From NCBI GenBank assembly GCA_018696595.1, contig JABHQW010000002.1, positions 74,128-98,127 on the forward strand: 24,000 bases of DNA. The letters are read 5' to 3'. The notes beneath the pieces are model-generated. The model was not told where the DNA came from. It ran no database searches and saw only the letters and a program-made list of their open reading frames with translations. Made by a program: the position numbers and the translations under genes. Position 1 is the stretch's first letter, and each line of letters begins with the position of its first letter. This document shows positions 1-23,164 of the stretch, one piece after another. The stretch comes from Candidatus Woesearchaeota archaeon (GTDB taxonomy: Archaea; Nanobdellota; Nanobdellia; Woesearchaeales; GW2011-AR9).

Positions 1-447
1 GTTGGAACTTTAACTAGAAAACTTTCTCAGAAAGTTTTACCTAAAGGAAGAGTTTATGCTTTTGATTTTATTGAGCATAATGTTAGGGTTGCTTTATCTC
101 ATATGAAGAGACACGGACATGTTAACTTTTACCACCATAAACATTTAGATCATTTTAAAACAACTATCAAATTGCCGAAGATGGATGCTTTAGTTTCTAC
201 TGGTTCTTTGTCTTATATGCAAAAGCCACAAAATGTTTTGAACCATTTAGGTAAGCATGTCAAGAAAGGTGGCCGAGTTGTATTCTTAGATTACGATCAG
301 TTCTTTTTCTTTATTCCTAATGTGCCCTGGATTAGTGATGAGAAAAAACTTAAAAAGATGTTTAAGATTGCTAGTTTTGAAGTTGAAGTTATTAAGAAAC
401 GCGGATTGTTATGGAGACATATCTTTATTCATGGTAAGAAAGTTTAA
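1..447 (+). CDS. SAM-dependent methyltransferase-like domain; 3' part of a gene that starts upstream of the window (probably a third APC-permease/methyltransferase paralog)
   Basis: Frame 1 is open from nt 1 (VGTLTRKLSQKVLPKGRVYAFDF...) and is in frame with tracked ORF 103..447. It aligns along its whole length with the C-terminal 150 aa of 3929..6004: GTLTRKL, SLSYMQKPQNVL vs MLSYMQNPLKVL, GGRVVFLDYDQFFFFIPNV vs GADVVFLDYDKFFYFIPNV, KRGLLW, terminal GKKV vs GKRV. Confidence 0.8.
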   Translation, partial: VGTLTRKLSQKVLPKGRVYAFDFIEHNVRVALSHMKRHGHVNFYHHKHLDHFKTTIKLPKMDALVSTGSLSYMQKPQNVLNHLGKHVKKGGRVVFLDYDQFFFFIPNVPWISDEKKLKKMFKIASFEVEVIKKRGLLWRHIFIHGKKV

Positions 448-490: not shown

Positions 491-2824
491 GTGGTGAGAA
501 ACAAATTAGACAAAATAATACAACTATTAATCCCTCCCTCATTAGTTCTCCTTCTTGTTGTTACTATCATTGAACTTTTTTATGGTGTTGGTAAATCTAT
601 GTCAATATTTATTGATATTTTTGATGTCTATGTGATTATTATTTTTGCTATTGATTTGTATTACCGATGGTTTGAAACTCCACGCTTTTGGCCTTATATT
701 AAAAAACACATTCTTGATATTATTGCTACTATCCCTTTCAACTTAATTTTTTTAGGAATTGAAGCACTCGCTTTAATAAGAGCGTTAAGGGGTGTTCGTA
801 TTATTGCTAGAATTGTTAAGTTTGCACGATTTGCACGTTATGGTCGTTTATTAAGATTATTAAGATTTGGTGCAAGAGCACCGAGATTTATTAGGGTAAG
901 AAAGCAAGTAAAAAAAGGTAAAATTCGTAAAGTTCAACCGCACGAAAAAGAGTTGAAGAAAACATTGAGTTTTAAAGTAATCCTCCTAATCACAATTAAC
1001 TCCATTATGGGTACTGGTATTTGGTTCCTTACTTCTGCAGGAGCTAAACATGCTGGTCCCGCTTCTTTAGTTTCTTGGGGTGTATTGTCTTTAATTTCTG
1101 TTTATATTGCGATGTGTTTTGGAGAATTAGTTTCTATGTTTCCAAAAGCAGGTGGCGTTTATGAGTTTGCTAAACAAGCTTACGGTAGATTTTGGAGTTT
1201 CGTTATTGGTTGGACCACATCTATTGCTGGAAGTGTAACTATTGCTATGCTTCTTTTAGGTGCGTTACAATATCTTATTCCTCTTAAATATTCTTTTACC
1301 TATATCCCTATTGCAATTTTTTTAATTATTGCTTTCAGTTATGTAGCATTTAGGGGGATGCAAACTTCAACCGTTGTTTTGGTGACCTTTGCAATCATTA
1401 CTTTAACTGCGGTTGTTTCAATTATCATTCCTGGATTTATTAATTTTAAACCGGGCAATCTTGATCCTTTCTTTGTTTTCCCAGCAATGAATGTCTTGTT
1501 AGCAATATTCTTTATTGCGGAAACTTTCTTTGGTTGGGAAAGTGCTATTTTTCTTTCTGCTGAAACAAAAAATCCTTCTAAAATAATGCCTAAGGCGTTA
1601 ATTTACGGAACTCTTATTATTGCGGTTTTGTCTTTCTTTTTAGCTCTTACAGCTATGGGTACTATTCCCTGGGCAGAATTTTCAGAATCTGTAGCACCAC
1701 TAAAAGATTTAGGAAGCGTCCATTTTGGAAATATTGGGGGGATAATCTTTGCAATATTGATTTTTATTTCTGTAATTGGTGCTACTGCAGGTTGGATTGT
1801 AACTGCACCAAGATTATTAATGTCTATTGCTGAAGATAAATTATTTTTCACTCAATTTGCAAAAATTCATCCCAAACATAAAAGCCCTTACGTTTCAATA
1901 ATTTTTCAAGTTTTAGTTGTTTCAACTTTAGTTATTGTTGGGGCTGGTTCGTATGAAACTTTATTGCATATGCTAATTCCTTTAATTTTGGTTGTCTATT
2001 CTGCTGTCTTGTTAAGTCTCGTTATTTTACGTTTTAAAAGACCAGAATTAAAACGACCTTACAAAGTTATTTTTGGAAAAGTTGGCCCTCTTATCACGAT
2101 GCTGTTTATGGTTTTTCTATTAATAATGTTTATTAAAGAAACTCATAGTGCTTTTGACATCTTGAGGATTTCTGCTGGTTTAGTTGCTTTTGGTATCCCT
2201 GCTTATTTCGCAATTGAATTATTTTATGATAAGAAATATGTTACTCTTAGAAGAAATTTGATGGCTAAGTTATCACATCATTATAATAAATTTCCTTTAA
2301 CTAAAATGACATTTAATAAAATAATTTCTTTAGTTGGACCATTTAATAAGAAATCTTCTCTTATGGTTTATAATTCTCCAATGGGGGCTTTTACTCAAAA
2401 AATTGTTAAATCTAAAATTCCTTTCCGTAAAATAATTATTGCCAATCAGTCAAAAGAAGAAATTAAAGTTTTCAAAGAAAAAATTTCTTCTGAAAATAGA
2501 AAACATATTGGTGTGCATTTGTTGAGAAAATTAAGTGTCCCTGTAAATGTGGGGAAAGTAAATGCTTTTGTTTCATTTAATAGTTTAGGACATGTTAAAG
2601 ACGTAGCTGGGTTTGTTCACAATGTAAAGAAAGTTCTTAATAAAAAAGGCAAGTTCTGTTTTTATGTTAAAAACAATTTTCTGAATATGACTCCTAATGC
2701 TTTATTAGTTGAAGATAAGAAAAAGATGCTGGCTTTGTTTAAGAAAGAAAAATTAGTGGTAACTTATAACAAAAAAAGAAGATTGTTTAAGACAGAAATA
2801 TTTATTTGTGGTAAAAAAGTTTAA
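491..2824 (+). CDS. Three-domain membrane protein: N-terminal voltage-sensor-like (S1-S4, no pore) domain + APC-superfamily amino-acid/polyamine permease + C-terminal degenerate methyltransferase-like domain
   Basis: 777-codon ORF with a GTG start 6 nt after GAGGT (480-484). The S4-like helix RALRGVRIIARIVKFARFARYGRLLRLLRF has a basic residue at about every third position, and the S3-like segment is KHILDIIATIPFNLIFL. APC motifs are GGVYEFAKQAYG, SAETKNPSKIMPKAL and KIHPKHKSPY. The C-terminal ~160 aa are homologous to the MTase domains at 1..447 and 5534..6001, but the SAM motifs are altered. Confidence 0.85.
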   Translation: MVRNKLDKIIQLLIPPSLVLLLVVTIIELFYGVGKSMSIFIDIFDVYVIIIFAIDLYYRWFETPRFWPYIKKHILDIIATIPFNLIFLGIEALALIRALRGVRIIARIVKFARFARYGRLLRLLRFGARAPRFIRVRKQVKKGKIRKVQPHEKELKKTLSFKVILLITINSIMGTGIWFLTSAGAKHAGPASLVSWGVLSLISVYIAMCFGELVSMFPKAGGVYEFAKQAYGRFWSFVIGWTTSIAGSVTIAMLLLGALQYLIPLKYSFTYIPIAIFLIIAFSYVAFRGMQTSTVVLVTFAIITLTAVVSIIIPGFINFKPGNLDPFFVFPAMNVLLAIFFIAETFFGWESAIFLSAETKNPSKIMPKALIYGTLIIAVLSFFLALTAMGTIPWAEFSESVAPLKDLGSVHFGNIGGIIFAILIFISVIGATAGWIVTAPRLLMSIAEDKLFFTQFAKIHPKHKSPYVSIIFQVLVVSTLVIVGAGSYETLLHMLIPLILVVYSAVLLSLVILRFKRPELKRPYKVIFGKVGPLITMLFMVFLLIMFIKETHSAFDILRISAGLVAFGIPAYFAIELFYDKKYVTLRRNLMAKLSHHYNKFPLTKMTFNKIISLVGPFNKKSSLMVYNSPMGAFTQKIVKSKIPFRKIIIANQSKEEIKVFKEKISSENRKHIGVHLLRKLSVPVNVGKVNAFVSFNSLGHVKDVAGFVHNVKKVLNKKGKFCFYVKNNFLNMTPNALLVEDKKKMLALFKKEKLVVTYNKKRRLFKTEIFICGKKV

Positions 2825-2897: not shown

Positions 2898-3248
2898 ATG
2901 GTAAAATTAACTTATATTGAAAAAAAAGGATTTACTCAGAACAACCGTTATGACGCTGGAGTTCAAGCTATTAAGGCTACTGGTGTATTGGAAGCTTTTT
3001 ATAATTTATTGCCTAGTCATGATCAAAGAGGATTTAATATTTCTTCTGGTATCGTTGATACTCTCCCTTCTTACTTTGCGGTTCCTATCAAACGAAAATT
3101 AGAAAAAAGTTTTAACCCTAATATACATCCGCAGGATCCAGTAATTGCGGTTGCTGATTACAGATTAAATGAAAGAATTAATCTCAATCCAGAAGAAAAC
3201 CAAACTCTTGATAAATTAATGGAAGGAATAAGTATGGTGCCATTGTAA
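2898..3248 (+). CDS. Hypothetical protein (116 aa), embedded in the permease cluster
   Basis: ORF with GGAGG 9 nt upstream and an upstream TATA box. I recognise no motif. Confidence 0.55.
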   Translation: MVKLTYIEKKGFTQNNRYDAGVQAIKATGVLEAFYNLLPSHDQRGFNISSGIVDTLPSYFAVPIKRKLEKSFNPNIHPQDPVIAVADYRLNERINLNPEENQTLDKLMEGISMVPL

Positions 3249-3256
3249 TCTTTCAT

Positions 3257-3835
3257 CTACTTTTTATTTTTGTTTTTCTTCAAATTTCTTTTCTCTAGAA
3301 CTTTTGTATGTTTCTTCTGATACTCTGGTTTGTGTCTATGAACATGATGTGTGACTTTTGTAAACAATCTTGATTTGGTAACAATTCTTAATGATCGAGC
3401 AGCTAATCTAATATACTTAGCAATTTTCTGACTTCTACTTAAGGCAGAGATGCCTTTTCTTGCTTCTAATGACTCATGTAATATTGCTTGACTAATGGTG
3501 TATTTTCCAGCAGTTGCAGCGACTCGCCAAACTCGACTTACAATAGTAAATACAATCACTAGGGGGACAACTGCGACTATATCTAACCAGTAACTTTTGA
3601 AAAAGAATTTCCAGGTTTTAGCTTTGATTGCCAAGAAGATCAAATCAATGACAAAGATGACGATGATAAAGTAATCTAATGCCACAATCGGTGTATGGTA
3701 AAGTTCAACAAAATGATGAACTGATTCGTTAAAGTACCCGATGACTTCTAAAACGATAATTATCAGCAAACCCACAATCGCTGCTGGAATTAACTTGGCA
3801 TTCCAATGTTCAACCTTTTCCCAAAAATTATTCAT
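3257..3835 (-). CDS. Free-standing voltage-sensor-like 4-TM protein (ion-transport S1-S4 module without pore), 192 aa
   Basis: I place the start at the internal ATG (3835, MNNFWEKVEHW...), because the longer tracked ORF would overlap the divergent gene and swallow the promoter. A TATA box on the minus strand sits about 26 nt upstream, giving a leaderless layout. The S3-like segment is SYWLDIVAVVPLVIVF, followed by basic S4-like stretches SRVWRVAATAGK and KYIRLAARSLRIVTKSRLFTK. No GYG/pore region is present. Confidence 0.7.
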   Translation of the reverse strand: MNNFWEKVEHWNAKLIPAAIVGLLIIIVLEVIGYFNESVHHFVELYHTPIVALDYFIIVIFVIDLIFLAIKAKTWKFFFKSYWLDIVAVVPLVIVFTIVSRVWRVAATAGKYTISQAILHESLEARKGISALSRSQKIAKYIRLAARSLRIVTKSRLFTKVTHHVHRHKPEYQKKHTKVLEKRNLKKNKNKK

Positions 3836-3857
3836 AGAAGAAAGTAATTTTTTTAGG

Positions 3858-3865
3858 TATATAAA
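3858..3865 (-). promoter_or_regulatory. TATA box (minus strand TTTATATA) for the 3835 VSD-like gene
   Basis: The minus strand reads aaaaTTTATATAc, centred about 26 nt upstream of ATG 3835. This matches the leaderless spacing seen at other genes in the window. Confidence 0.5.
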
Positions 3866-3882
3866 TTTTGTCCTGTGATAAC

Positions 3883-3891
3883 TTTTATAAA
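3883..3891 (+). promoter_or_regulatory. TATA box (cTTTTATAAAt) for the 3929 permease-methyltransferase gene
   Basis: It lies back-to-back with the minus-strand box in the 93-bp divergent intergenic region. The predicted start site near 3912-3915 leaves a short leader containing AGAGG (3918-3922), 6 nt before ATG 3929. Confidence 0.5.
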
Positions 3892-3928
3892 TGATAGAAC
3901 AATAGTTAACTATGAAAAGAGGCATGAG

Positions 3929-6004
3929 ATGAAACTTAAACAGTTCTGGCAGTATTTAGTTACGGATAGTTCTAAGAAGAAGAAAGTTACAACTCTAACT
4001 TCTAATAAATCTATTTCTACTAAAACTGTAACTGTAAAAAGGCATCAATCTACCGCAAAAAGACTTCTCTCATCACCGGTTGTACTATTTATTTTAATTA
4101 ACTCTATCTTAGGGAGCTCATTATTTTACCTCCCCAGCCTAGGAGTTGTTTCTTCTGGGGCGGCATCACTTATTGCTTGGATTCTATTATTTGCTCTTTC
4201 AACATTTATGATGCTTTACGTTTCTGAATTAATTACTTTACATCCTACCTCAGGTGGAACTTACGAGTTCTGTAAACGAGCTTACGGAAGACAAATCTCT
4301 TTTTTTGCTGGCTGGATTATTTGGATTGCTGGAAATTTCGGAATGGCTCTTAATGTAGTGGCGGCTTCTGAATACTTTATCCCAGATACTTATTCTTACT
4401 ACTTCATTTTACGACTAGTTTTTGCAGCAATCTGGATTCTTGTTCTTAACTTTATGGCTTTTAGAGGAATAGATGCGGGAGCAACAATGTTAGTTGTTTT
4501 CGGAATTTTAACTGTGGTTGTAGTGATTGCAATGATCTTACCTTCTTTCATTGACATTCCTACTTTGTTTCAAGGAAGTTTAACCAGCCCATTTCAATTA
4601 GAAATGATGCAACCTTTCTTCCGTCATACTGGATTAGGAATATTTAGTTTCTTACTTCTCTCGGTTTTCTTAATCGCGGAAGCATTCTTTGGTTTTGAAA
4701 CAGTAAGTTATATGGCTAACGAAGTTAAAGATAAAAAGAATTTACCAAAAATAATGATTTCTGCAATGGTCATTTGTGGTGTTATCATGACGATTTATCT
4801 GTTAAGTTCGTTGGGGACAGTTTCTTATCATGATTATGTTAGTGATGCTCGGCCTTGGGCAGTACAGGCATTAAACAATATGGGCAGTTTAGGACAGAAC
4901 TTTGTTGTTTTTGGTATGTACCTAGTAATTATTGGTGCGGCAGCAGCGTGGCCAATTGCTAGTTCAAGATTGATTAGGGCGATGTCTAGCGATAAATTGT
5001 TTTTGAAACATTTCTCAAAGTTACATCCAAAACACAAATCTCCTTATCGTGCAGTTTATTTTCAAACAATCATAATTTTCTTATTTGCTTGGTTTATTTT
5101 TCGTGGATATATTGTTAAATGGGGTGATCCATATCGGACCATTTACTTAATCTACTTATTACTAAGTTTAATTGTACTATCACTTGTCCTTTTTGCAGTT
5201 CCTATCTTGAGGAAGAAAGAAGCACATTTGAAAAGAACATTTAAGGCGCCATTACCTTGGCTTGGTCCAATATTCTTTGTTGGTCTTTTTGTTTTCATGA
5301 TTATTAATTGGATCAGAATTGAAGGTGGTGTAGCAACGTCTGTAATTTTAATGGCAGGGTCATTTGTTGTTTTAGGAATTCCATTTTATTTCTTAGTGGA
5401 AATGTTTTACAATCCTAAGGCTATCATCTCAGTTAATGAAAGGTTATCTTATTTTGTAGTTATTGGAGAAAAATTATTTTTTCCTTTTACTATTAGAAAC
5501 AGATTGATTAAAGACCTAAAAACTTTGCGAGGGAAGTCTGTTTTAGAGTATGGTTGTTCTTTCGGAACACTAACTCGGAAGTTGGCAAAGAAAGTTACTT
5601 CTACTGGAAAAATTTACGCGACAGATTTATCTTTACACAAAGTTAAGATTGCTGATCAAAGAACAAAACGAATCAAGCATGTTTTTGTTCATCATCATCC
5701 TCATTTGAGTGATTTCAAATTGAAATTGCCTCAGAAGGTTGATAACGTGCTCTCTGTGGGGATGTTATCTTACATGCAGAATCCTTTGAAAGTATTGTCA
5801 AGTTTAGCGAAGCGAGTAAAAAGGGGTGCTGACGTAGTATTCTTGGATTATGATAAATTCTTTTACTTTATTCCTAACGTGAAGTGGATTGAAGAAGATA
5901 AAAAGCTAATTGCTTTATTCAAACGAGCGGGTTACAAAGTCAAAGTAGAAAGAAAACGTGGTTTATTATGGACTTATGTTATTATTAGTGGAAAAAGAGT
6001 TTAA
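3929..6004 (+). CDS. APC-superfamily amino-acid/polyamine permease fused to a C-terminal class-I SAM-dependent methyltransferase domain
   Basis: I place the start at ATG 3929 (MKLKQFWQYL), which has an SD; the tracked 3875 start overlaps the divergent gene. APC motifs are SGGTYEFCKRAYG, FFGFETVSYMANEVKDKKNLPKIM and KLHPKHKSPY. The MTase domain (5534-6001) shows motif I VLEYGCSFGTLT, an acidic beta-2 end IYATDLS, and GADVVFLDYD. Confidence 0.85.
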   Translation: MKLKQFWQYLVTDSSKKKKVTTLTSNKSISTKTVTVKRHQSTAKRLLSSPVVLFILINSILGSSLFYLPSLGVVSSGAASLIAWILLFALSTFMMLYVSELITLHPTSGGTYEFCKRAYGRQISFFAGWIIWIAGNFGMALNVVAASEYFIPDTYSYYFILRLVFAAIWILVLNFMAFRGIDAGATMLVVFGILTVVVVIAMILPSFIDIPTLFQGSLTSPFQLEMMQPFFRHTGLGIFSFLLLSVFLIAEAFFGFETVSYMANEVKDKKNLPKIMISAMVICGVIMTIYLLSSLGTVSYHDYVSDARPWAVQALNNMGSLGQNFVVFGMYLVIIGAAAAWPIASSRLIRAMSSDKLFLKHFSKLHPKHKSPYRAVYFQTIIIFLFAWFIFRGYIVKWGDPYRTIYLIYLLLSLIVLSLVLFAVPILRKKEAHLKRTFKAPLPWLGPIFFVGLFVFMIINWIRIEGGVATSVILMAGSFVVLGIPFYFLVEMFYNPKAIISVNERLSYFVVIGEKLFFPFTIRNRLIKDLKTLRGKSVLEYGCSFGTLTRKLAKKVTSTGKIYATDLSLHKVKIADQRTKRIKHVFVHHHPHLSDFKLKLPQKVDNVLSVGMLSYMQNPLKVLSSLAKRVKRGADVVFLDYDKFFYFIPNVKWIEEDKKLIALFKRAGYKVKVERKRGLLWTYVIISGKRV

Positions 6005-9625: not shown

Positions 9626-11101
9626 ATGGACCGATCCATCTTAATCAAAAAATATTTCGAAGAAAAACGATTTGTGGACAGTAGTATTCAGTCTTTTAAT
9701 AACTTTATAGATAATGGTTTGCAAGAAGTTGTTGAAGAGAATAAAGAAGCAGAGCCTGCAATTATCCCACATAATATTGAAAAATTTAAAATCAGGTTCG
9801 GAAGAATTACTGTTGGTAAACCTGAAATTACTGAAGCCGATGGAAGTAAGAGGCCAATTTATCCTGCTGAAGCAAGATTAAGAAAAATTTCTTATTATGC
9901 TCCTATCTATTTGGAAGTTAGTACTTATATTAATGATGTTCAAAGAGAAAGTTTTGTTGCAGAAATTGGAAAAATGCCAATCATGCTTAGAAGTAAATAT
10001 TGTCATCTTGACGGGTTAAGCCGAGAAGAACTAATTAAACATGGTGACGACCCAACTGATCCTGGTGGATACTTTATTATTAACGGAACTGAAAGAGTAA
10101 TTGTTAATGTTGAAGATTTGGCAGCTAACAATTTTATTGTTGAAGGTAATCCCATTAAAGGATATAATGGGAGATTCTTTGCAGCAAAAGGATCTTACAA
10201 AATTCCTCATTCTTTTGAAAGGAAGAAAGATGGGATTTATTATATGACATTTACTCGGGTTAAGAATATGCCCATTATAGTTGTATTAAAAGCATTGGGG
10301 CTAACTAAAGACGAAGATATCATGCGAGCAATCTCTGCTAATGAAACTTATGAAGAAGTAATTCTTAACTTGTTTGAATTTGTTGATATCAAAACTCAAG
10401 AAGATGCAGTGGATTACATTTCTAAAAGAATTGGAATCGCTCAAGCTAAAGAAATTAGAATTGAAAGAACTAAAGAAATCTTAGACAAGTTCTTGTTACC
10501 TAATATTGGTATGGATATTGGCTTGAAATCAATAAAAGCAAAAAACATTTGTAAGATGTTAAAGAAATTCATTGATGTTAGAAAAGAAACAAGACCTTCT
10601 GATGATAAGGATCATTACATGAATAAAAGACTGAGACTTAGTGGAGACTTAATGATTGATTTGTTTAGAGTTAATTTTAAAATTCTGGTTGGAGATATTC
10701 TTTACAACTTTCAAAGAATTATCAAACGGGGAAAATTACCTTCAATCCGAGTTATTATTAGAGATAAGTTGTTAACTTCTAGACTTTATTCTTCAATGGC
10801 TACCGGAGAATGGGTTGGTGGGAGACAAGGAGTATCTCAAAGAATGGATCGTTCAAATTTTTTGGCAATGGTATCACATTTACAAAAGGTTGTTAGTCCG
10901 TTATCTTCAAGTCAAGAGAATTTTGACGCAAGAGCATTACATTGTACGCACATTGGTAGGTTGTGTCCAATTGAAACTCCTGAAGGTACAAACATTGGGC
11001 TAAGAAAAAACATGGCAATGTTATGTTCAATCTCACAAGACGTTGGGGAAACTAGCGTTCTTGAGAAAGTTAAAGAATTAGGTTTAAAACCTATCGAATA
11101 A
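9626..11101 (+). CDS. rpoB2: DNA-directed RNA polymerase subunit B'' (N-terminal half of split Rpo2)
   Basis: 491 aa with GGAGG upstream. Motifs include GYFIINGTERVIV, DDKDHYMNKRLRLSGDL and CPIETPEGTNIGL. Confidence 0.95.
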   Translation: MDRSILIKKYFEEKRFVDSSIQSFNNFIDNGLQEVVEENKEAEPAIIPHNIEKFKIRFGRITVGKPEITEADGSKRPIYPAEARLRKISYYAPIYLEVSTYINDVQRESFVAEIGKMPIMLRSKYCHLDGLSREELIKHGDDPTDPGGYFIINGTERVIVNVEDLAANNFIVEGNPIKGYNGRFFAAKGSYKIPHSFERKKDGIYYMTFTRVKNMPIIVVLKALGLTKDEDIMRAISANETYEEVILNLFEFVDIKTQEDAVDYISKRIGIAQAKEIRIERTKEILDKFLLPNIGMDIGLKSIKAKNICKMLKKFIDVRKETRPSDDKDHYMNKRLRLSGDLMIDLFRVNFKILVGDILYNFQRIIKRGKLPSIRVIIRDKLLTSRLYSSMATGEWVGGRQGVSQRMDRSNFLAMVSHLQKVVSPLSSSQENFDARALHCTHIGRLCPIETPEGTNIGLRKNMAMLCSISQDVGETSVLEKVKELGLKPIE

Positions 11102-11110
11102 GGAAATAAA

Positions 11111-12913
11111 ATGGCAGACGTTTATATTAATTCAAGATTTGTAGGAACAGTAGATGACATTAATCTATTTGTTGAGAACATAAAAGATGAAAGAAGAAAA
11201 GGTTCTTTGGCAGAAGATGTTAATGTTTATACTGATATAGAAAACAATGAAGTTCACGTTAATTGTGATGGTGGAAGAGCAAGAAGGCCTTTAATAATTA
11301 TTAAAGAAGGAAAATCTTTGCTAACAGAAAGACACTTGAAACAATTAAAAGATGGCGAAATCACTTGGGCTGATTTAGTGAGACAAGGAGTCGTAGAATA
11401 TTTGGACGCTGGTGAAGAAGAAAATGCATTAGTGGCTTACGACGAAACTCAATTAACCGAGAAACATACGCACATGGAAATTACTCCTGGGTCTATTAGT
11501 GGAATTGCAACTGCATTGGTTCCTTTTGGAAACTTTAACCAATCTTCAAGATTAATTATTGGAAGTAAGAACCAGAAACAATCTTTAGGATTCTATGCTG
11601 CTAATTATCACATTAGATTAGATATGGATACAAACTTATTACATTATCCACAATTTCCTTTAGTTAAAACTAAGTTACACGATGTTACTAATTATGATGA
11701 ACATCCGGCCGGCCAGAATATGGTTGTTGCTATAATGTGTTTCGATGGTTATAACATGGAGGATGGAGTTATATTAAACAAGAGTTCTGTTGAGAGAGGA
11801 TTGGCAAGAAGTACTTATTTCCGTCCAGTATCTGCAGAAGAATTACGTTATTCTGGTGGTTTAATTGATGAAGTTTCTATTCCTGATAAAGAAGTTAAAG
11901 GTTATCGTAGTGAAGCCGATTACAAGTTCCTTGAAGGGGACGGAATTATCTATCCTGAAGCAAAAGTATGTGATGGTGACGTGATTATTGGAAGAACATC
12001 TCCTCCTAGATTCTTGAGTAGTTTGGATGAATACAATTTATCTGCTGCCATTAGAAGAGAAAGTTCTGTTTCTTTGAAACATGGAGAAAAAGGTGTGGCT
12101 GACTTTGTCGTTATTACTGAAAATGAAGAAGGTAACAAACTTGTTCAAGTAAGATTAAGGGAGGAAAGAATTCCAGAGATTGGAGATAAATTCACTTCTC
12201 GTCATGGTCAGAAAGGAGTTACAGGTATTTTAGTTCCTGTGCAAGACATTCCTTTTTCCGCTAATGGAATTACTCCTGACTTAATTTTCACTCCGCACGG
12301 TATTTCTTCTCGGATGACCATTTCTCATTTATTAGAATTAATTGGTGGGAAAGTTGGTGCATTATCTGGAAGATTTGTTGATGGGACTTTATTTGAGGCA
12401 GAATCTGAACTTAATATGCGAGCAGAATTATTAAATCTTGGTTTTAAAGAAGATGGAACCGAAACATTTTATGATGGTCGGACTGGAAAGCAGATGTTAG
12501 CTAAGATTTATGTGGGAAACATGTATTATCTGAGACTAAGACATTTAGTTGCTAACAAAATGCAATCTCGGGCAAGAGGACCAATCCAATTACTAACAAG
12601 ACAACCAACTGAGGGTAAGGCTAAAGAAGGTGGTCTAAGGTTGGGAGAGATGGAGAAGGATGTTTTCATTGCTCACGGTGCTTCATTATTATTGAAGGAA
12701 AGGTTTGATTCTGATAAAACAAACTTACCAGTTTGTGAAAAGTGTGGCCTAGTGGCAGTTGAAGACCAATACAAGAATAGAAAGTACTGTTTGATGTGTG
12801 GCGAAGATGTTAACATTAATTATGTTGAGATGAGTTACGCATTTAAATTACTGTTAGACGAAATAAGAAGCTTAGGTATCTACCCTAAGTTGAATTTAGA
12901 AAATAAGTATTAA
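11111..12913 (+). CDS. rpoB1: DNA-directed RNA polymerase subunit B' (C-terminal half of split Rpo2)
   Basis: 600 aa. Motifs include GDKFTSRHGQKGV, GGLRLGEMEKD and the C-terminal Zn ribbon CEKCG...CLMCG. It starts 9 nt after the B'' stop. Confidence 0.95.
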   Translation: MADVYINSRFVGTVDDINLFVENIKDERRKGSLAEDVNVYTDIENNEVHVNCDGGRARRPLIIIKEGKSLLTERHLKQLKDGEITWADLVRQGVVEYLDAGEEENALVAYDETQLTEKHTHMEITPGSISGIATALVPFGNFNQSSRLIIGSKNQKQSLGFYAANYHIRLDMDTNLLHYPQFPLVKTKLHDVTNYDEHPAGQNMVVAIMCFDGYNMEDGVILNKSSVERGLARSTYFRPVSAEELRYSGGLIDEVSIPDKEVKGYRSEADYKFLEGDGIIYPEAKVCDGDVIIGRTSPPRFLSSLDEYNLSAAIRRESSVSLKHGEKGVADFVVITENEEGNKLVQVRLREERIPEIGDKFTSRHGQKGVTGILVPVQDIPFSANGITPDLIFTPHGISSRMTISHLLELIGGKVGALSGRFVDGTLFEAESELNMRAELLNLGFKEDGTETFYDGRTGKQMLAKIYVGNMYYLRLRHLVANKMQSRARGPIQLLTRQPTEGKAKEGGLRLGEMEKDVFIAHGASLLLKERFDSDKTNLPVCEKCGLVAVEDQYKNRKYCLMCGEDVNINYVEMSYAFKLLLDEIRSLGIYPKLNLENKY

Positions 12914-12933
12914 ACTTATGTTGAGGAAAAAAA

Positions 12934-15504
12934 ATGGATCGACAAGTGCATAAAAAAGTATGTAATATTAACTTTAGTTTGTTTTCTCCAAAACAAATTA
13001 TGGATCTAGCTGCTGCTAAAGTAGTTACTCCTGAATTATATGATCGTGAAGGATATTCTGTTGACGGTGGTTTAATGGATATTCGTTTAGGGGTTATTGA
13101 TCCAGGGTTAAGATGTAAAACCTGTGGTCAAAAGCTTAAAGAATGTCCTGGTCATTTTGGATATATTGAATTAGCAAGACCTGTAATTCATATTAAGTTT
13201 GTTAGACAAGTTCTTGATTTGTTAAAATCTACTTGTAAATATTGTGGTCAGGTTCTTATTCCTGAAAATAACATTAGCAAGTTTACCGATGTTTTTGATA
13301 AAGTGGGTAAGGAAGAAGGTTTTGAAGCAAGAAGAAGAAAAATTAAGGAAGTTGTTAATAAATTTAAAACTAAAGAAAAGTGTCCTCATTGTGAGAAAAA
13401 ACAAGAAAAAATTAAAATTGAAAAACCTTATACTTATTACGAAAGTGATTTACGTCTAAGTCCAATTGAAGTGCGAGCAAGATTAGAAAAAGTACCTTCA
13501 GAAGATCTTAAAATCTTTGGATACGTAGAAGGTTTCCGTCCAGAATGGATGGTTCTAACTGTTTTACAAATTCCTCCAGTTACGATGCGTCCAAGCATTA
13601 CTTTAGAATCTGGAGAACGAAGTGAAGACGACTTAACTCATAAGTTAGGTGATATTGTTAGAATTAATCAGCGTTTATTTGAGAACATTAATGCTGGTGC
13701 TCCTGAAGTTATTATTGAAGATTTATGGGATCTGTTACAATACCATGTTACAACTTTCTTTGACAATGCAGTTTCTCAACTACCTCCTGCAAGACATCGG
13801 GGCGGACAAGTACTAAAAACATTAGCTGCAAGAATTAAAAGTAAAGAAGGTCGGTTAAGACATAATCTTGCTGGTAAGAGAACTGACTTTTCAGCGAGAA
13901 CAGTTATTAGTCCTGACCCTTTTATTGATTTGAACCAAGTTGGTGTTCCATTATCAATGTCAATGAATTTAACAGTTCCAGAAAGAGTTACTGAATGGAA
14001 CAAAGAATACCTGTTAAAGTTTGTTAAGAACGGACCAAAAAAATATCCTGGTGCTAATTATATTATCAAGCCTGATGGAAAAAGAAAATCCATAACTGAA
14101 GATACACAAGAAGAAATCTTAGAAGAGTTAGAAGAAGGTTATCTTGTAGAAAGACATTTACTTGACGGTGATGTTGCTTTATTTAACAGACAACCAAGTT
14201 TGCACAGAATGAGCATGATGTGTCATAAAGTAAAAGTTCTTCCAGGTAAAACATTCCGTTTGAATCCTGCAGTTTGTAATCCTTATAACGCTGATTTTGA
14301 TGGGGATGAAATGAACTTACATATTCCACAGAACGATGAAGCAAGAGCAGAAGCAAAAATTTTAATGTTGGTTGATACTCAAATAATTAGTCCCCGTTAT
14401 GGATTAAGTGTTGTGGGTTGTATCCAAGATGCAATTACTGGTAATTATCTTTTAACTAAAGAATTAGTTTTAAGTAGGGCTGAAGCAACTGACTTATTAT
14501 ATAATTGCGGGGTTACTGATTTGTCCCCTTTACCTAAGAAAGAGAAGGTTGATGGTAGTGAAGTATTCTCTGTTTTATTACCTAACGACTTTAGTTTCAT
14601 TGGTAAAGATAAGAGTGGTAATGACGTTAAGATTGTTAATGGAAAACTAAAATCTGGTTACATGGACAAATCTAACTTAGGTCAAGAAAGTGGACTGATG
14701 TTAAGAAACATTTATGAAAAATATGGTCCTGCTTATACTGCTGAACTTTTAGGTAAGATCTCAAAATTAGGTATTTCTGTATTGGCAAGAAGAGGGTTCT
14801 CGATTGGAATTGGGGATATGGACTTACCATTAGAAACACAAGATGAAATTAGGGCAACTGTAAAGAAATCCGAAGATGAAGCACTAAAAATAATTGATGA
14901 ATTTTATGCTGGAAAATTGGATGCATTGCCTGGAAGAAGTGTTGCTGAAACTCTTGAACTTAATGTTCTTGGTGCACTTAACAAAGCAAGAAATAAGAGC
15001 GGAGATATTGCTATGAAACAAGTACAAAATAGTGCAGCAATTACTATGGCTCGGAGTGGTGCAAGAGGAAATCCTTTAAACATTGCTCAAATGACTGCTG
15101 TTGTTGGTCAGCAAGCTTTAAGAGGTAAAAGAATTGAGTCTGGTTTTAAAAATAGAACCATGTCTTATTTTGGAAATAAAGATCTTAGTCCTAAGGCTAG
15201 GGGTTTTGTTAAAAATAATTTTAAAAGCGGTTTGACCCCTGCAGAGTTCTTTTTTGGAGCGATGACTGGGAGAGACGCATTAATGGATACTGCTTTGAGA
15301 ACACCTAAATCCGGTTATCTTTATCGAAGATTATCTAACGCTTTACAAGATCTTAAAGTTGAATATGATGGCACAGTTAGAGATGCAAGTAGTAGGATTG
15401 TCCAGTTTAGTTATGGAGAAGACGGATTAGATGTTTCCAAAACTAAGAATGGTGTTGTTGATGTAAAAAGTGTCATTCAAAATGTTATAGGTGCAAGCAA
15501 ATGA
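12934..15504 (+). CDS. rpoA1: DNA-directed RNA polymerase subunit A' (Rpo1N)
   Basis: 856 aa. Zn motif [20 protein letters not shown] and catalytic [12 protein letters not shown] are present. Confidence 0.95.
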
Positions 15505-16646
15505 AAGCAGAACACACAAAAATAATTAATAGCTATGCTGATAAATTACCTCCATTAGTATTGAAAACAGTGGAAGAAGAAGTTCCTGGAAATATTAGTG
15601 CTAGCAATCTATCTAAGATTATGGAAGGAGTTATTGCAGCTTACAAATATGCTGAAGTTCATCCTGGTGAAAGTGTTGGTTTAGTTGGCGCTGAAAGTAT
15701 TGGTGAGCCTGGTACACAAATGACTTTGAATACGTTTCACTTGGCTGGGGTTGCTGAAGTACAAGTTACTACTGGTTTGCCAAGGATTATTGAAGTTTTT
15801 GATGCAAGAAAAGAAATCAAAACTCCAATGATGGAGATTTATCTTAAAAGTCCACATAATAAAAATATGGAAAAAGTTCGTAAGTTTGCTGCTAATATTA
15901 AAGAGATGAAATTTGAAGAATTTGTTTCCGAATATTCATTAAGTATCTTTGATCAGACTCTTAAAGTAGTTTTAAATAAAGGTTTGTTAGATGACAATGC
16001 TTTAGTTGCAAAAGACTTAATCAAGTTAATTAAGACTAAAGCAAAGGGATTTAATTTAACAAGTCAAAATGAAGAGATTCTTTTTACTCATAAAGGTAAA
16101 ACTGAGGAAATTAAAGATCTTTATGCAATCAAGGAAAAAATTAAAGATGTTAAAGTTGGCGGAGTCAAGGGTTTGAAACAAGTTCTTCCAGTAAAGCGAA
16201 ATGAAGAATATGTTGTTTTAACTTCTGGAAATAATTTGAAAGATGTTTTGGCTTTACCTGAGGTTGATTCAAATAGAACAACTAGTAACGACATCTATGA
16301 AATTTATAAAGTTCTGGGCATTGAAGCGGCTAGACAAGCAATAATTAATGAGGTTTACAAAGTTGTTGAATCTCAAGGATTGAATGTTAATATTCGTCAT
16401 ATTATGCTTGTAGCAGACGTGATGTGTGCTAGTGGTGTGGTTAAAGGAGTTACTCGTTATGGTGTTGTTAGTGAGAAAGCTAGTGTTTTAGCAAGGGCAT
16501 CTTTTGAAACTCCATTAAAACATTTATTTAATGCTGCATTGGAAGGGGAAGTTGATGACCTGACTTCTGTAGTTGAAAATGTAATGATTAATCAGCCAGT
16601 TCCAATTGGTACTGGGTTACCTGGATTAATAACAAAGATGAAATAA
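15501..16646 (+). CDS. rpoA2: DNA-directed RNA polymerase subunit A'' (Rpo1C)
   Basis: 381 aa. The ATGA start/stop overlap with rpoA1 suggests translational coupling. Motifs [29 protein letters not shown] are present. Confidence 0.95.
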
Positions 16647-18996: not shown

Positions 18997-19944
18997 ATGA
19001 ACATATTAGGTATAGAATCAACTGCACATACATTTGGTGTGGGAATTGTAACAGATGAGGGAAAAGTATTAGCGAATGCTGTTGATAGTTACACTTCTAA
19101 GGACATTGGGATGATTCCGCACGAGATGGCGGAGCATCATAATAAAGTGGCTGAGAAGCTCTTAAAACAGGCCTTGAAGGACGCTAATGTGTCTTGGGGC
19201 GATATTGAATTTATTGCTTATTCTGCTGGTCCTGGTTTAGATCCTGCATTATGGGCTGGGTATCATATTGCTAAGAAATGGGCTGAAGAGAATGGTAAAA
19301 AATTGGTGGGTGTAAATCACTGTGCAGCTCATTTGTCTATTGGAAAAGTGTGGAATAAACTGAAAGATCCTTGCTATCTTTATGTTTCTGGTGTAAATAC
19401 TCAAATTATTGCTTATGAAGCCGGAAAATATCGTGTGTTTGGAGAAACCTTAGATCTTGGTTTAGGAAATATGTTAGACAAGTTTGGTCGTATTTTAGGT
19501 TTGGGATTTCCTGCTGGTCCAAAAGTTGAGGAACTGGCTAAGAATGGGGGGTTTGTTGAATTACCTTACACTGTGAAAGGGATGGATTTTTCTTTTTCAG
19601 GAATTCTGACTAAAGCAGAACAATTATTGAAGAAGGGCATTTCTAAAGAAGATCTTTGTTTCTCTGTACAGGAAACTTGTTTTGCTATTCTTGCCGAAGC
19701 TACTGAAAGAGCAATGGCTTATATTGATAAAAAAGAATTGTTGTTAGTTGGTGGTGTAGGGGCTAATAAACGGTTTTGTGAAATGCTCGACATTATGTGC
19801 AAAGAACGGGGTGCTAAATTCTATAAAGTTCCAATGGATCTTGCTGGTGATCAAGGAGCAATGATTGCTTGGGAAGGTTTTCTTAGAAAAGATGAATCTT
19901 CTGATATAGAAGTTAATCCACATTGGCGGACTGATGAAGTTTAG
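18997..19944 (+). CDS. kae1: tRNA N6-adenosine threonylcarbamoyltransferase Kae1 (KEOPS catalytic subunit)
   Basis: 315 aa. ILGIESTAHTFGVGIV, the metal-binding HCAAHLSIG, and LLLVGGVGANKR are present. There is no fused Bud32 domain. Confidence 0.9.
   Translation: MNILGIESTAHTFGVGIVTDEGKVLANAVDSYTSKDIGMIPHEMAEHHNKVAEKLLKQALKDANVSWGDIEFIAYSAGPGLDPALWAGYHIAKKWAEENGKKLVGVNHCAAHLSIGKVWNKLKDPCYLYVSGVNTQIIAYEAGKYRVFGETLDLGLGNMLDKFGRILGLGFPAGPKVEELAKNGGFVELPYTVKGMDFSFSGILTKAEQLLKKGISKEDLCFSVQETCFAILAEATERAMAYIDKKELLLVGGVGANKRFCEMLDIMCKERGAKFYKVPMDLAGDQGAMIAWEGFLRKDESSDIEVNPHWRTDEV

Positions 19945-21127: not shown

Positions 21128-23164
<2,037 letters not shown>

What the first reader, a model, noticed from the sequence alone, without database searches (positions are those of the whole stretch)
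491..2824. Pore-less voltage-sensor-like domain covalently fused to an APC secondary transporter and a methyltransferase-like domain
Seen in sequence: one uninterrupted 777-codon frame. Residues 1-135 contain four hydrophobic segments arranged like S1-S4 of the voltage-gated ion-channel superfamily. The S2-like segment is IFDVYVIIIFAIDLYYRWF and the S3-like segment is KHILDIIATIPFNLIFL. The S4-like helix carries Arg/Lys at nearly every third position (RALRGVRIIARIVKFARFARYGRLLRLLRF, nt ~770-868). There is no S5-P-S6 pore module and no T-x-G-Y/F-G filter anywhere. Instead a basic linker leads directly into an APC permease core (GGVYEFAKQAYG, SAETKNPSKIMPKAL, KIHPKHKSPY), followed by a ~160-aa cytoplasmic domain homologous to the neighbouring methyltransferase domains. 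Established knowledge: pore-less VSDs are known coupled to a phosphatase (VSP) or acting as a proton channel (Hv1). I know of no characterised secondary transporter with an attached VSD. Inference: uptake gated or tuned by membrane potential. The topology is self-consistent, since a 4-TM VSD ends in the cytoplasm where the APC N-terminus begins.
Basis: partly seen in the sequence, partly recalled or inferred. Interest (0 to 1): 0.8.

Follow-up and report, generated by a model that had tools for sequence, protein, structure and literature searches.

The report
Voltage-sensor domain fused to archaeal amino-acid transporter
A tiny symbiotic-type (DPANN) archaeon encodes an amino-acid transporter with the voltage-sensing module of nerve-type ion channels attached to its front end but no channel pore; this would be the first such case outside animals, where one sperm Na+/H+ exchanger is the only known example.

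Summary
ORF 491-2824 (+) is one 777-codon gene. Residues 1-140 are a KvAP-like S1-S4 voltage-sensor domain (VSD). The S2/S3 charge-transfer residues are invariant. Arg/Lys sits at every third position over about 40 residues. A conserved linker runs straight into TM1 of a complete APC (LeuT-fold) permease, followed by a class-I methyltransferase-like domain whose SAM motifs are degenerate in this clade. There is no pore module.

The fusion is not an artefact. More than 120 full-length 90%-identity clusters and at least 38 species-level genomes carry it, all named DPANN/unclassified archaea or mislabelled. All domains are under purifying selection. Public annotation calls these proteins "APC permease", and the VSD is unannotated.

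The VSD was added to an older APC-methyltransferase architecture; two VSD-less paralogues flank the gene. It belongs to a large family of stand-alone, pore-less VSD proteins, one of which lies next door.

This case is an independent fusion with a different fold, a different domain order and an archaeal host.

Voltage control of transport is inferred, not shown.

The parts
491..2824 (+). Whole gene: VSD-APC-methyltransferase-like fusion protein, 777 aa plus stop codon
   Evidence: The identical protein P0018 and more than 120 full-length homologue clusters were found.
518..583 (+). S1 (aa ~10-31), containing the near-invariant E28
   Evidence: AF2 helices 2-31 and 5-31, hydropathy, conservation.
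593..676 (+). S2 (aa 35-62) with charge-transfer-centre residues D45, F52, D55 and R59
   Evidence: D45, D55 and R59 are invariant and F52 is kept in 82 of 83 homologues. The segment aligns with KvAP S2.
686..766 (+). S3a/S3b (aa 66-92): YIKKHILDIIATIP, then FNLIFLGIEAL, with D76
   Evidence: D76 is D or E in 82 of 83 homologues and P82 is invariant. The segment aligns with KvAP YVKKTLYEIPALVP.
767..910 (+). S4 plus its basic extension (aa 93-140): 13 Arg/Lys, mostly every third residue. Which ~22 residues cross the membrane is not resolved.
   Evidence: AF2 breaks the stretch into helices 83-100, 104-114 and 118-146. pLDDT is low here in the full-length model.
911..970 (+). Conserved linker K-x-x-x-I-R-K-V-Q-P-H-E-K...L-S-F leading into permease TM1 (aa 141-160)
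   Evidence: P150 and H151 are invariant. Mean column conservation is 0.82, close to the 0.84 of the permease core. The motif is absent from the VSD-less paralogue.
971..2281 (+). APC-superfamily (LeuT-fold) permease core, aa 161-597
   Evidence: Pfam PF13520 E 1.6e-44. PDB BasC 6f2g E 1.4e-29. Foldseek BasC TM 0.81, also GkApcT, AdiC and LAT1. TM1 G-T-G and TM6 ETFFGWES are invariant.
2282..2821 (+). Class-I methyltransferase-like (Rossmann-type) domain with degenerate SAM motifs (VYNSPMG instead of D-x-G-x-G; N652 instead of Asp)
3257..3835 (-). Neighbouring stand-alone, pore-less VSD-like gene. It is 192 aa from Met31 of the 222-aa ORF and is a paralogue of the fused VSD.
   Evidence: BLASTP E 1e-11 against the fused VSD. 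Ion_trans E 1.4e-4. The exact 192-aa product was called on at least 24 contigs. Family search.
3929..6004 (+). VSD-less paralogue: APC permease plus intact methyltransferase domain (691 aa)
   Evidence: It is colinear with target aa 144-777 at 30% identity, E 3e-92.
1..447 (+). 3' end of a second VSD-less APC-methyltransferase paralogue (626 aa on full contigs), directly upstream on the same strand

Best explanation
The gene encodes an amino-acid-type APC secondary transporter. A KvAP-like four-helix voltage-sensor domain has been added to its N-terminus; this much is shown. The proposed mechanism is inferred. S4 carries a conserved ladder of Arg/Lys facing an intact charge-transfer centre (D45, F52, D55, D76) and shifts with membrane potential. 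The shift passes through the long basic helical extension of S4 and the invariant ...IRKVQPHEK... linker into TM1a, the intracellular-gate helix of LeuT-fold transporters. This biases the alternating-access cycle, so that transport depends on the energisation state of the cell. The most likely outcome is that transport is permitted when the membrane is polarised and locked when it is not, which would prevent back-leak of scarce amino acids in a host-dependent archaeon. The C-terminal methyltransferase-like domain is a second, cytoplasmic module inherited from the older APC-methyltransferase architecture. In this clade it has lost its SAM-binding residues and probably serves a structural or regulatory role.
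For: VSD identity:
- A profile of the N-terminal domain hits the KvAP VSD at E 5e-6, and 47 of its 48 PDB hits at E<=1 are Kv/HCN channels. The single sequence gives KvAP at E 8e-4.
- 32 of 52 family members hit Pfam Ion_trans, the best at 1e-8.
- The AF2 model of the domain (pLDDT 84.9) finds the isolated KvAP VSD first in Foldseek (prob 1.0, TM 0.53-0.59). All but one of the top 50 hits are voltage-sensor-containing channels (Kv/KCNQ/Nav/Cav/CNG).
- D45, D55 and R59 are invariant. F52 and D/E76 are kept in 82 of 83 homologues.
- The R/K ladder is 84-100% conserved at 12 of 13 positions (69% at K110). Length variants are mostly multiples of 3 residues, which keeps the register.
- The periodicity is far beyond chance.

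Real, selected fusion:
- More than 120 full-length clusters at 60-100% identity.
- At least 38 species genomes, including a single-cell genome.
- The same locus occurs on at least 24 contigs.
- dN/dS is 0.04-0.11 for the VSD and 0.02-0.065 for the permease.

Coupling:
- The linker is as conserved as the permease core and absent from the VSD-less paralogues.
- Only about 20 residues separate the basic helix from TM1.

Precedent:
- SLC9C1 uses a very long, basic, extramembranous S4 extension to gate a transporter (PMC10620092).

The permease looks functional: TM1 GTG and TM6 motifs are invariant, and the fold matches BasC, GkApcT and AdiC.
Against: - No functional data exist: no gating charge and no transport assay.
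- The single-sequence Pfam Ion_trans score is below the curated threshold.
- Foldseek E-values are weak (0.01-0.04) and TM is only about 0.55.
- AF2 confidence in the S4 region is low in the full-length model (pLDDT 44-55). I could not inspect coordinates or PAE, so the VSD-permease interface is unknown.
- Thirteen charges over about 40 residues is longer than any single TM helix.
- Profile-profile alignment places the stand-alone family's R-rich helix opposite the second half of this stretch. It is therefore unresolved which part is the membrane-spanning S4.
- The sign of voltage dependence and the substrate are unknown.
Confidence: 0.6

Rival explanations
1. The N-terminal domain is a genuine VSD homologue that has lost voltage-dependent regulation. 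It would then serve as a structural module, for example in oligomerisation, membrane targeting or stability, or as a scaffold for the C-terminal domain.
For: Non-sensing VSD relatives exist; TMEM266 has no known function (PMC13095418). The S4 region is the least confidently modelled part and is somewhat less conserved than the permease, 0.72 against 0.84. Most stand-alone family members have no transporter nearby: 37 of 47 loci.
Against: The residues that matter only for charge transfer are invariant or nearly so across 83 homologues: the D45-x6-F52-x2-D55 pattern, D76 and the Arg ladder. Indels mostly preserve the 3-residue register. A purely structural role would not demand either feature.
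Confidence: 0.2
2. The VSD is itself a conduction path, like Hv1 or an omega-pore. It would pass protons or another ion to supply or dissipate the coupling gradient next to the permease.
For: Hv1 shows that a pore-less VSD can conduct protons (PMC13095418). S1 carries a near-invariant acidic residue, E28. The large stand-alone VSD family could be channels of this kind.
Against: Hv channels are reported absent from bacteria and archaea and have a short S4 with 3 Arg (PMC13095418). Here a full Arg ladder and an intact hydrophobic plug residue (F52) argue for an occluded, non-conducting sensor. The closest relatives by sequence and fold are KvAP-type sensors.
Confidence: 0.07
3. The long basic R-x-x stretch is mainly a cytoplasmic or interfacial element. 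It could be an autoinhibitory plug or an anionic-lipid-binding helix, regulated by the C-terminal methyltransferase-like domain rather than by voltage.
For: The stretch has about 40 residues and 13 charges, too long for one TM helix. AF2 splits it into three helices. The most invariant charges (R116-R135) lie in the second half, next to an invariant P131-R132.
Against: Topology needs one membrane crossing between S3 (which ends outside) and permease TM1 (which starts inside), and this stretch is the only candidate. Its first half aligns with the KvAP S4 arginines. In SLC9C1 a similar extension coexists with true voltage sensing.
Confidence: 0.08
4. The fusion is an assembly, frameshift or gene-calling artefact that joins a VSD gene to a permease gene.
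For: The window comes from a metagenome-type assembly. A separate VSD gene lies nearby.
Against: The junction is conserved at 60-100% identity in more than 120 protein clusters from JGI, ENA, NCBI, Tara and Logan assemblies. It occurs in at least 38 species-level genomes, including a single-cell genome, and on at least 24 contigs of this same locus. The linker is under purifying selection.
Confidence: 0.01

Closest known systems
[quoted passage not shown]
   Same: It is a secondary transporter covalently joined to a pore-less S1-S4 VSD. Its S4 continues as a very long, positively charged extramembranous helix that couples to the transporter. It was described in 2023 as the only known VSD-regulated transporter (PMC10620092, PMC13095418).
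   Different: SLC9C1 has an NhaA-fold (CPA) elevator transporter, not a LeuT-fold APC. Its VSD is C-terminal to the transporter, is followed by a CNBD, and is most like Nav VSD-IV. It is metazoan. Here the VSD is N-terminal and KvAP-like, S4 feeds directly into TM1, the extra domain is methyltransferase-like, and the host is a DPANN archaeon. The two are independent fusions, not homologous architectures.
KvAP voltage-sensor domain (Aeropyrum pernix Kv channel; PDB 1ORS, 2KYH)
   Same: It is the best match by sequence and by fold. The S2 D...D...R pattern, the S3a Y-[VI]-K-K-x-[IL]-x-[DE]-I-x-A-x-[IV]-P motif and the S4 R-x-x-R ladder are shared.
   Different: KvAP continues into an S5-P-S6 K+ pore. 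Here there is no pore and no selectivity filter. S4 carries about twice as many charges.
Ci-VSP/TPTE and Hv1 (other pore-less VSD proteins)
   Same: In these proteins a VSD is used without a channel pore, coupled to a non-channel effector or acting alone.
   Different: The effector is a cytosolic phosphatase (VSP) or the VSD itself (Hv1). Both are eukaryotic, and Hv1 is reported absent from archaea and bacteria.
APC/SLC7-type transporters BasC, GkApcT, AdiC and LAT1
   Same: The permease core is homologous: PDB E 1e-29 to 1e-17 and Foldseek TM up to 0.81. The TM1 G-[ST]-G motif is present.
   Different: None of these has an N-terminal VSD or a C-terminal methyltransferase-like domain. No NCBIfam subfamily threshold is reached; the best is TIGR00909 at 177 bits against a cut-off of 557, so substrate and coupling mode are unassigned.
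Stand-alone 150-240-aa VSD-like proteins of DPANN archaea (unnamed, 'hypothetical protein')
   Same: They are the nearest relatives of the fused VSD: hhalign probability 99.96% (the A1 profile includes one stand-alone member, which inflates this) and HMM E down to 1e-28. One is encoded 430 bp downstream on the opposite strand.
   Different: They are not fused to anything. They carry a conserved G-Q-x-x-x-H-E-x-L-E segment where the fused proteins have the first half of the Arg ladder.

Membership tests
Voltage-sensor domain (S1-S4) of the voltage-gated ion-channel superfamily | Four transmembrane helices, N-in and C-in | tested here: met
   AF2 gives helices at 2-31, 35-62, 66-80/83-100 and 104-146. 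Hydropathy supports this. Charge distribution follows the positive-inside rule (sequence). The exact span of the fourth crossing is unresolved.
Voltage-sensor domain (S1-S4) of the voltage-gated ion-channel superfamily | S4 with Arg/Lys at every third position | tested here: met
   13 basic residues and 11 i/i+3 pairs, against 0 of 100,000 shuffles. They are conserved in 83 homologues.
Voltage-sensor domain (S1-S4) of the voltage-gated ion-channel superfamily | Charge-transfer centre: acidic-x6-aromatic-x2-acidic in S2 plus an acidic residue in S3 | tested here: met
   D45-x6-F52-x2-D55 and D76. They are invariant, or kept in 82 of 83 sequences. The spacing equals that of Kv1.2 E226/F233/E236/D259 (own knowledge) and matches the description in PMC13095418.
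Voltage-sensor domain (S1-S4) of the voltage-gated ion-channel superfamily | Significant sequence similarity to known VSDs (Pfam PF00520) | tested here: inconclusive
   The single sequence scores 18.9-19.1 bits against a 25-bit cut-off. The profile against PDB gives KvAP at E 5e-6, and 47 of its 48 hits are voltage-gated channels. 32 of 52 family members hit Ion_trans, the best at 1e-8.
Voltage-sensor domain (S1-S4) of the voltage-gated ion-channel superfamily | VSD fold in three dimensions | tested here: met
Voltage-sensor domain (S1-S4) of the voltage-gated ion-channel superfamily | Voltage-dependent S4 charge movement (gating current) | not testable with these tools
   Needs electrophysiology or voltage-clamp fluorometry.
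Voltage-gated cation channel (Kv/Nav/Cav) | S5-P-S6 pore module with a selectivity filter | tested here: not met
   S4 leads into the APC permease. No T-x-G-Y/F-G occurs in the protein or the window. Pfam Ion_trans covers only profile positions 15-110 of 241.
APC superfamily permease (PF13520/PF00324, LeuT fold) | Full-length match to the family profile and fold | tested here: met
   E 1.6e-44, profile positions 1-407 of 427. Foldseek BasC TM 0.81. PDB phmmer 1.4e-29.
Class I SAM-dependent methyltransferase | Rossmann-like alpha/beta fold homologous to the Methyltransf_11/12/23 families | tested here: met
   Pfam E 6e-4, just below the cut-off. BLASTP E 1e-13 to the neighbour's clear methyltransferase domain. 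AF2 shows a beta-alpha-beta pattern with pLDDT 80-90.
Class I SAM-dependent methyltransferase | Motif I (D/E-x-G-x-G-x-G) and the acidic residue after beta-2 that bind SAM | tested here: not met
   The target has V-Y-N-S-P-M-G and N652. More divergent VSD-fused homologues keep D-Y-D-C-G-x-G and Asp.
SLC9C1-type voltage-gated transporter | Homologous architecture: NhaA-fold exchanger, then VSD, then CNBD | tested here: not met
   The transporter fold differs, the domain order is reversed and there is no CNBD. The resemblance is functional and analogous only.

The most novel reading that the evidence does not exclude
This would be the first prokaryotic voltage-gated secondary transporter, and the first with a LeuT fold. 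It would also be the visible tip of a system in DPANN archaea in which pore-less VSDs act as free-standing, portable membrane-potential sensors. They occur alone (several hundred 50%-identity clusters), fused to APC permeases, and fused to HPP-family membrane domains. That would imply that voltage sensing as a general regulator of transport arose independently of ion channels, and possibly before them.
Probability: 0.4. Interest if true: 0.9.

Novelty: new variant of a known kind. Interest (0 to 1): 0.8.

Why it matters
VSDs are almost synonymous with ion channels. The review literature lists only a phosphatase (VSP), Hv1 and one animal transporter (SLC9C1) as exceptions.

A conserved, selected VSD-APC fusion in archaea would show that electromechanical control of an alternating-access transporter evolved at least twice. 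Here it uses a much more direct linkage, S4 to TM1a of the LeuT fold.

It would offer a small prokaryotic model, with no CNBD and no 13-TM elevator, for asking how S4 motion can gate a carrier.

It would also point to membrane-potential-dependent nutrient uptake in host-dependent DPANN archaea. The associated stand-alone VSD family is a large, unannotated set of candidate voltage sensors or proton channels in a domain of life where Hv-type proteins are reported absent.

Tried and rejected
- Whole-protein Pfam and NCBIfam scans do not report the VSD. It appears only when the N-terminus is scanned alone, and then below threshold.
- The first homologue search, using aa 1-189, returned only fragments. 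The full-length query was needed.
- The full-length AF2 model has moderate confidence (pLDDT 71) and is poor in S4.
- Gene context of distant full-length homologues shows no conserved partner genes.
- Rosetta-stone test: stand-alone VSD genes lie within 4 kb of an APC-methyltransferase gene in 10 of 47 loci of at least 5 kb. This is enriched over a rough, uncomputed expectation of a few per cent, but it is confounded by shared synteny (Carb_kinase appears in 11 of 47). I treat it as weak support only.
- dS is near saturation, so dN/dS values are approximate.
- Literature searches for a VSD combined with an APC permease, archaea or DPANN found nothing. The library lacks most subscription papers, so absence is not proof.
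- The Woesearchaeota MmtN paper concerns a separate soluble enzyme and was dismissed as irrelevant.
- Assembly artefact was rejected.
Full report
**Observation.** The window contains an uninterrupted 777-codon ORF at 491..2824 on the + strand. It has a GTG start and a GAGGT Shine-Dalgarno-like site 8 nt upstream. Residues 93-140 carry 13 Arg/Lys, at 97, 100, 103, 107, 110, 113, 116, 119, 122, 125, 129, 132 and 135. This gives 11 i/i+3 basic pairs, a count never reached in 100,000 shuffles of the same residues. No K+-filter motif exists in the protein or in any frame of the window. Pfam assigns aa 159-547 to AA_permease_2 (E 1.6e-44) and aa 646-724 weakly to Methyltransf_11 (E 6e-4).

**Host.** The host is an archaeon with 33% GC. 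It has split RpoB and RpoA genes, Kae1 and GyrB. Homologues are named Woesearchaeota, Nanoarchaeota or Nanoarchaeia, that is, DPANN.

**Is the N-terminus a voltage-sensor domain?**
- The single sequence scores below Pfam's threshold for Ion_trans: 18.9 bits against 25, matching profile positions 15-110, the S1-S4 half.
- Its best PDB matches are the KvAP voltage sensor (E 8e-4), followed by Kv and HCN channels, with unrelated momordin-type proteins appearing only at E > 0.6.
- A 9-sequence profile raises KvAP to E 5e-6. Of its 48 hits at E<=1, 47 are voltage-gated channels.
- In the wider family recovered by an exhaustive HMM search, 32 of 52 members hit Ion_trans, the best at 1e-8.
- An AF2 model of aa 1-147 built on that family (pLDDT 84.9, pTM 0.69) retrieves the isolated KvAP VSD as ranks 1 and 2 in Foldseek (prob 1.0, TM 0.53-0.59). 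All but one of the top 50 hits are voltage-sensor-containing channels (Kv, KCNQ, Nav, Cav, CNG).
- The charge-handling residues are fixed across 83 full-length homologues of 60-92% identity. D45 and D55 (S2) and R59 are invariant. F52 is kept in 82 of 83. D76 (S3) is D or E in 82 of 83.
- The pattern D45-x6-F52-x2-D55 plus an S3 acid has the spacing of the gating-charge-transfer centre (Kv1.2 E226/F233/E236/D259, from my own knowledge; general description in PMC13095418).
- The Arg ladder is 84-100% conserved at all positions but K110. Length variants of the stretch are 48, 45, 39 or 51 residues in most sequences, so indels mostly come in units of one R-x-x turn.

I conclude that aa 1-140 are a bona fide VSD homologue of the KvAP type without any pore module.

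**An unresolved detail in S4.** The basic stretch is about twice the length of one TM helix. AF2 divides it into helices 83-100, 104-114 and 118-146 and models it poorly in the full-length protein (pLDDT 44-55). The KvAP alignments place R97/R100/R103 on the first S4 arginines. The profile-profile alignment with the stand-alone relatives places their R-rich helix opposite R116-R135. Either half could be the membrane-spanning part. Topological parity is the same in both cases: one crossing, ending in the cytoplasm where APC TM1 begins.

**Is the fusion real?**
- A search with aa 1-189 found independent fragments that span the junction.
- The full-length query found the identical protein and more than 120 clusters of about 770-790 aa with 97-100% coverage in JGI, ENA, NCBI, Tara and Logan data.
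- A scan of species-representative genomes found the VSD in 44 loci. At least 38 are the fused type, including a single-cell amplified genome.
- The very same locus occurs on at least 24 contigs.
- Rough dN/dS values (dS is near saturation) are 0.04-0.11 for S1-S3, 0.06-0.25 for S4, 0.02-0.065 for the permease and 0.11-0.36 for the C-terminal domain.

None of these proteins carries an Ion_trans annotation. They are named "APC family permease" or "basic amino acid/polyamine antiporter".

**How the architecture arose.**
- The locus reads: RimK-like ATP-grasp, APC-MTase (626 aa), VSD-APC-MTase-like (777 aa), a 116-aa ORF, a stand-alone VSD (192 aa, opposite strand), APC-MTase (691 aa), then Carb_kinase.
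- Target aa 144-777 are colinear with aa 32-691 of the 691-aa paralogue (30% identity, E 3e-92). The VSD is therefore an N-terminal addition to a pre-existing APC-methyltransferase protein.
- The closest relatives of the fused VSD are not channels. They form a large family of 150-240-aa stand-alone proteins: 451 50%-identity representatives at E<=1e-3 and 199 at E<=1e-10. Where named, they are annotated "hypothetical protein [Nanoarchaeia]".
- A few members are fused to other modules, notably the HPP transmembrane domain (P0280, P0234). One representative (P0138) is VSD-APC without the C-terminal domain.
- Stand-alone VSD genes lie within 4 kb of an APC-MTase gene in 10 of 47 adequately long loci. 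In L050 they are divergently adjacent to a 626-aa APC that starts exactly at the post-linker motif. This is suggestive, but it is confounded by conserved synteny.

**C-terminal domain.** The domain is homologous to the neighbour's clear class-I methyltransferase domain (E 1e-13) and is modelled as a Rossmann-like fold with pLDDT 80-90. More divergent VSD-fused homologues keep the SAM motif D-Y-D-C-G-x-G and the Asp after beta-2. The target's clade has V-Y-N-S-P-M-G and Asn652. It is also the fastest-evolving region. I read it as a pseudo-enzyme in this clade.

**Permease.** The core is closest to BasC, GkApcT, AdiC and LAT1. It keeps the TM1 G-T-G and TM6 ETFFGWES motifs invariant. It reaches no NCBIfam equivalog threshold. 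The substrate is probably an amino acid, and the coupling mode is unknown.

**Mechanism (inferred).** S4 moves in the field. Its basic extension and the invariant IRKVQPHEK linker connect within about 20 residues to TM1a. The linker's conservation is 0.82 against 0.84 for the permease core, and it is absent from the VSD-less paralogues. TM1a is the helix whose tilt opens the intracellular gate in LeuT-fold carriers (established knowledge). Membrane potential would therefore bias alternating access. SLC9C1 provides the precedent. Its S4 continues for about 60 A as a positively charged extramembranous helix that restrains the transporter until hyperpolarisation pulls it down (PMC10620092). By analogy with the long S4 of HCN and SLC9C1, I favour activation by a polarised (inside-negative) membrane. 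This is speculation.

**Comparison and novelty.** As of 2023-2024 it was described as the only one. The present protein differs from it in transporter fold, domain order, accessory domain, VSD subtype and domain of life. It is an independent invention, not a homologue. My literature searches found no description of it, within the limits of an open-access library. I rate it a new variant of a known kind, with high interest. The architecture is firmly established and the voltage-gating function is unproven.

Noticed in passing
window 3257-3835 (-); family P0139-P0285: The 222-aa ORF is really a 192-aa gene starting at Met31 ('MNNFWEK...'). It encodes a stand-alone, pore-less VSD-like protein. 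It belongs to a large unannotated family in DPANN archaea, with 451 50%-identity representatives, mostly 150-240 aa. The family has a conserved G-Q-x-x-x-H-E-x-L-E segment between S3 and the R-rich helix. Its function is unknown; it could be a sensor subunit acting in trans or an Hv-like conductor.
   Followed up: partly
window 1-447, 491-2824, 3929-6004 (+): Three paralogous APC permease-methyltransferase fusion genes lie in one locus, and only the middle one has the VSD. The APC-MTase fusion itself appears uncharacterised. On full contigs a RimK-like ATP-grasp gene and a RimB-like protease gene lie just upstream (L004 11336-12579).
   Followed up: partly
window 2354-2460 (aa 622-657 of the target): The SAM-binding motif I and the beta-2 acidic residue are lost in the target's clade (VYNSPMG, N652). 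They are intact (DYDCGxG, Asp) in more divergent VSD-fused homologues such as P0066, P0070, P0088 and P0094. This is a recent switch to a pseudo-methyltransferase.
   Followed up: yes
window 779-895 (aa 97-135) and alignment A2: Length variation in the S4 Arg ladder among homologues is mostly in multiples of three residues (48, 45, 39 and 51 aa variants). Whole R-x-x units are gained or lost and the register is preserved.
   Followed up: yes
P0280 (307 aa), P0234 (305 aa): The same VSD family also occurs fused C-terminally to an HPP-family four-TM domain (PF04982, E 1.9e-15 and 1.5e-10). This is a second, different membrane-module partner for the pore-less VSD.
   Followed up: partly
window 2898-3248 (+): A 116-aa ORF lies between the fusion gene and the stand-alone VSD gene. 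It is called as a gene on every copy of the locus but matches no NCBIfam family; Pfam was not run on it.
   Followed up: partly
window 3875-3928 / 3836-3925: The mechanical ORF starts overlap: 3875 for the + gene and 3925 for the - gene. Most gene calls on other contigs use 3929 and 3835, giving a divergent gene pair with a shared intergenic region of about 93 bp. That region is presumably a bidirectional promoter.
   Followed up: partly
L008, L009, L013, L015 and others: Many genome records that carry this DPANN-type fusion are titled 'uncultured Methanosarcinales archaeon'. The protein is otherwise found only in records named Woesearchaeota/Nanoarchaeota or unclassified archaeon, so these titles look like taxonomic mislabels from a bulk MAG submission.
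   Followed up: no
window 9626-16646 (+), 18997-19944, 21137-23164: An archaeal RNA-polymerase operon with split B''/B' and A'/A'' subunits is followed by small ORFs not scanned here, then Kae1/TsaD and a bacterial-type DNA gyrase B gene.
   Followed up: no
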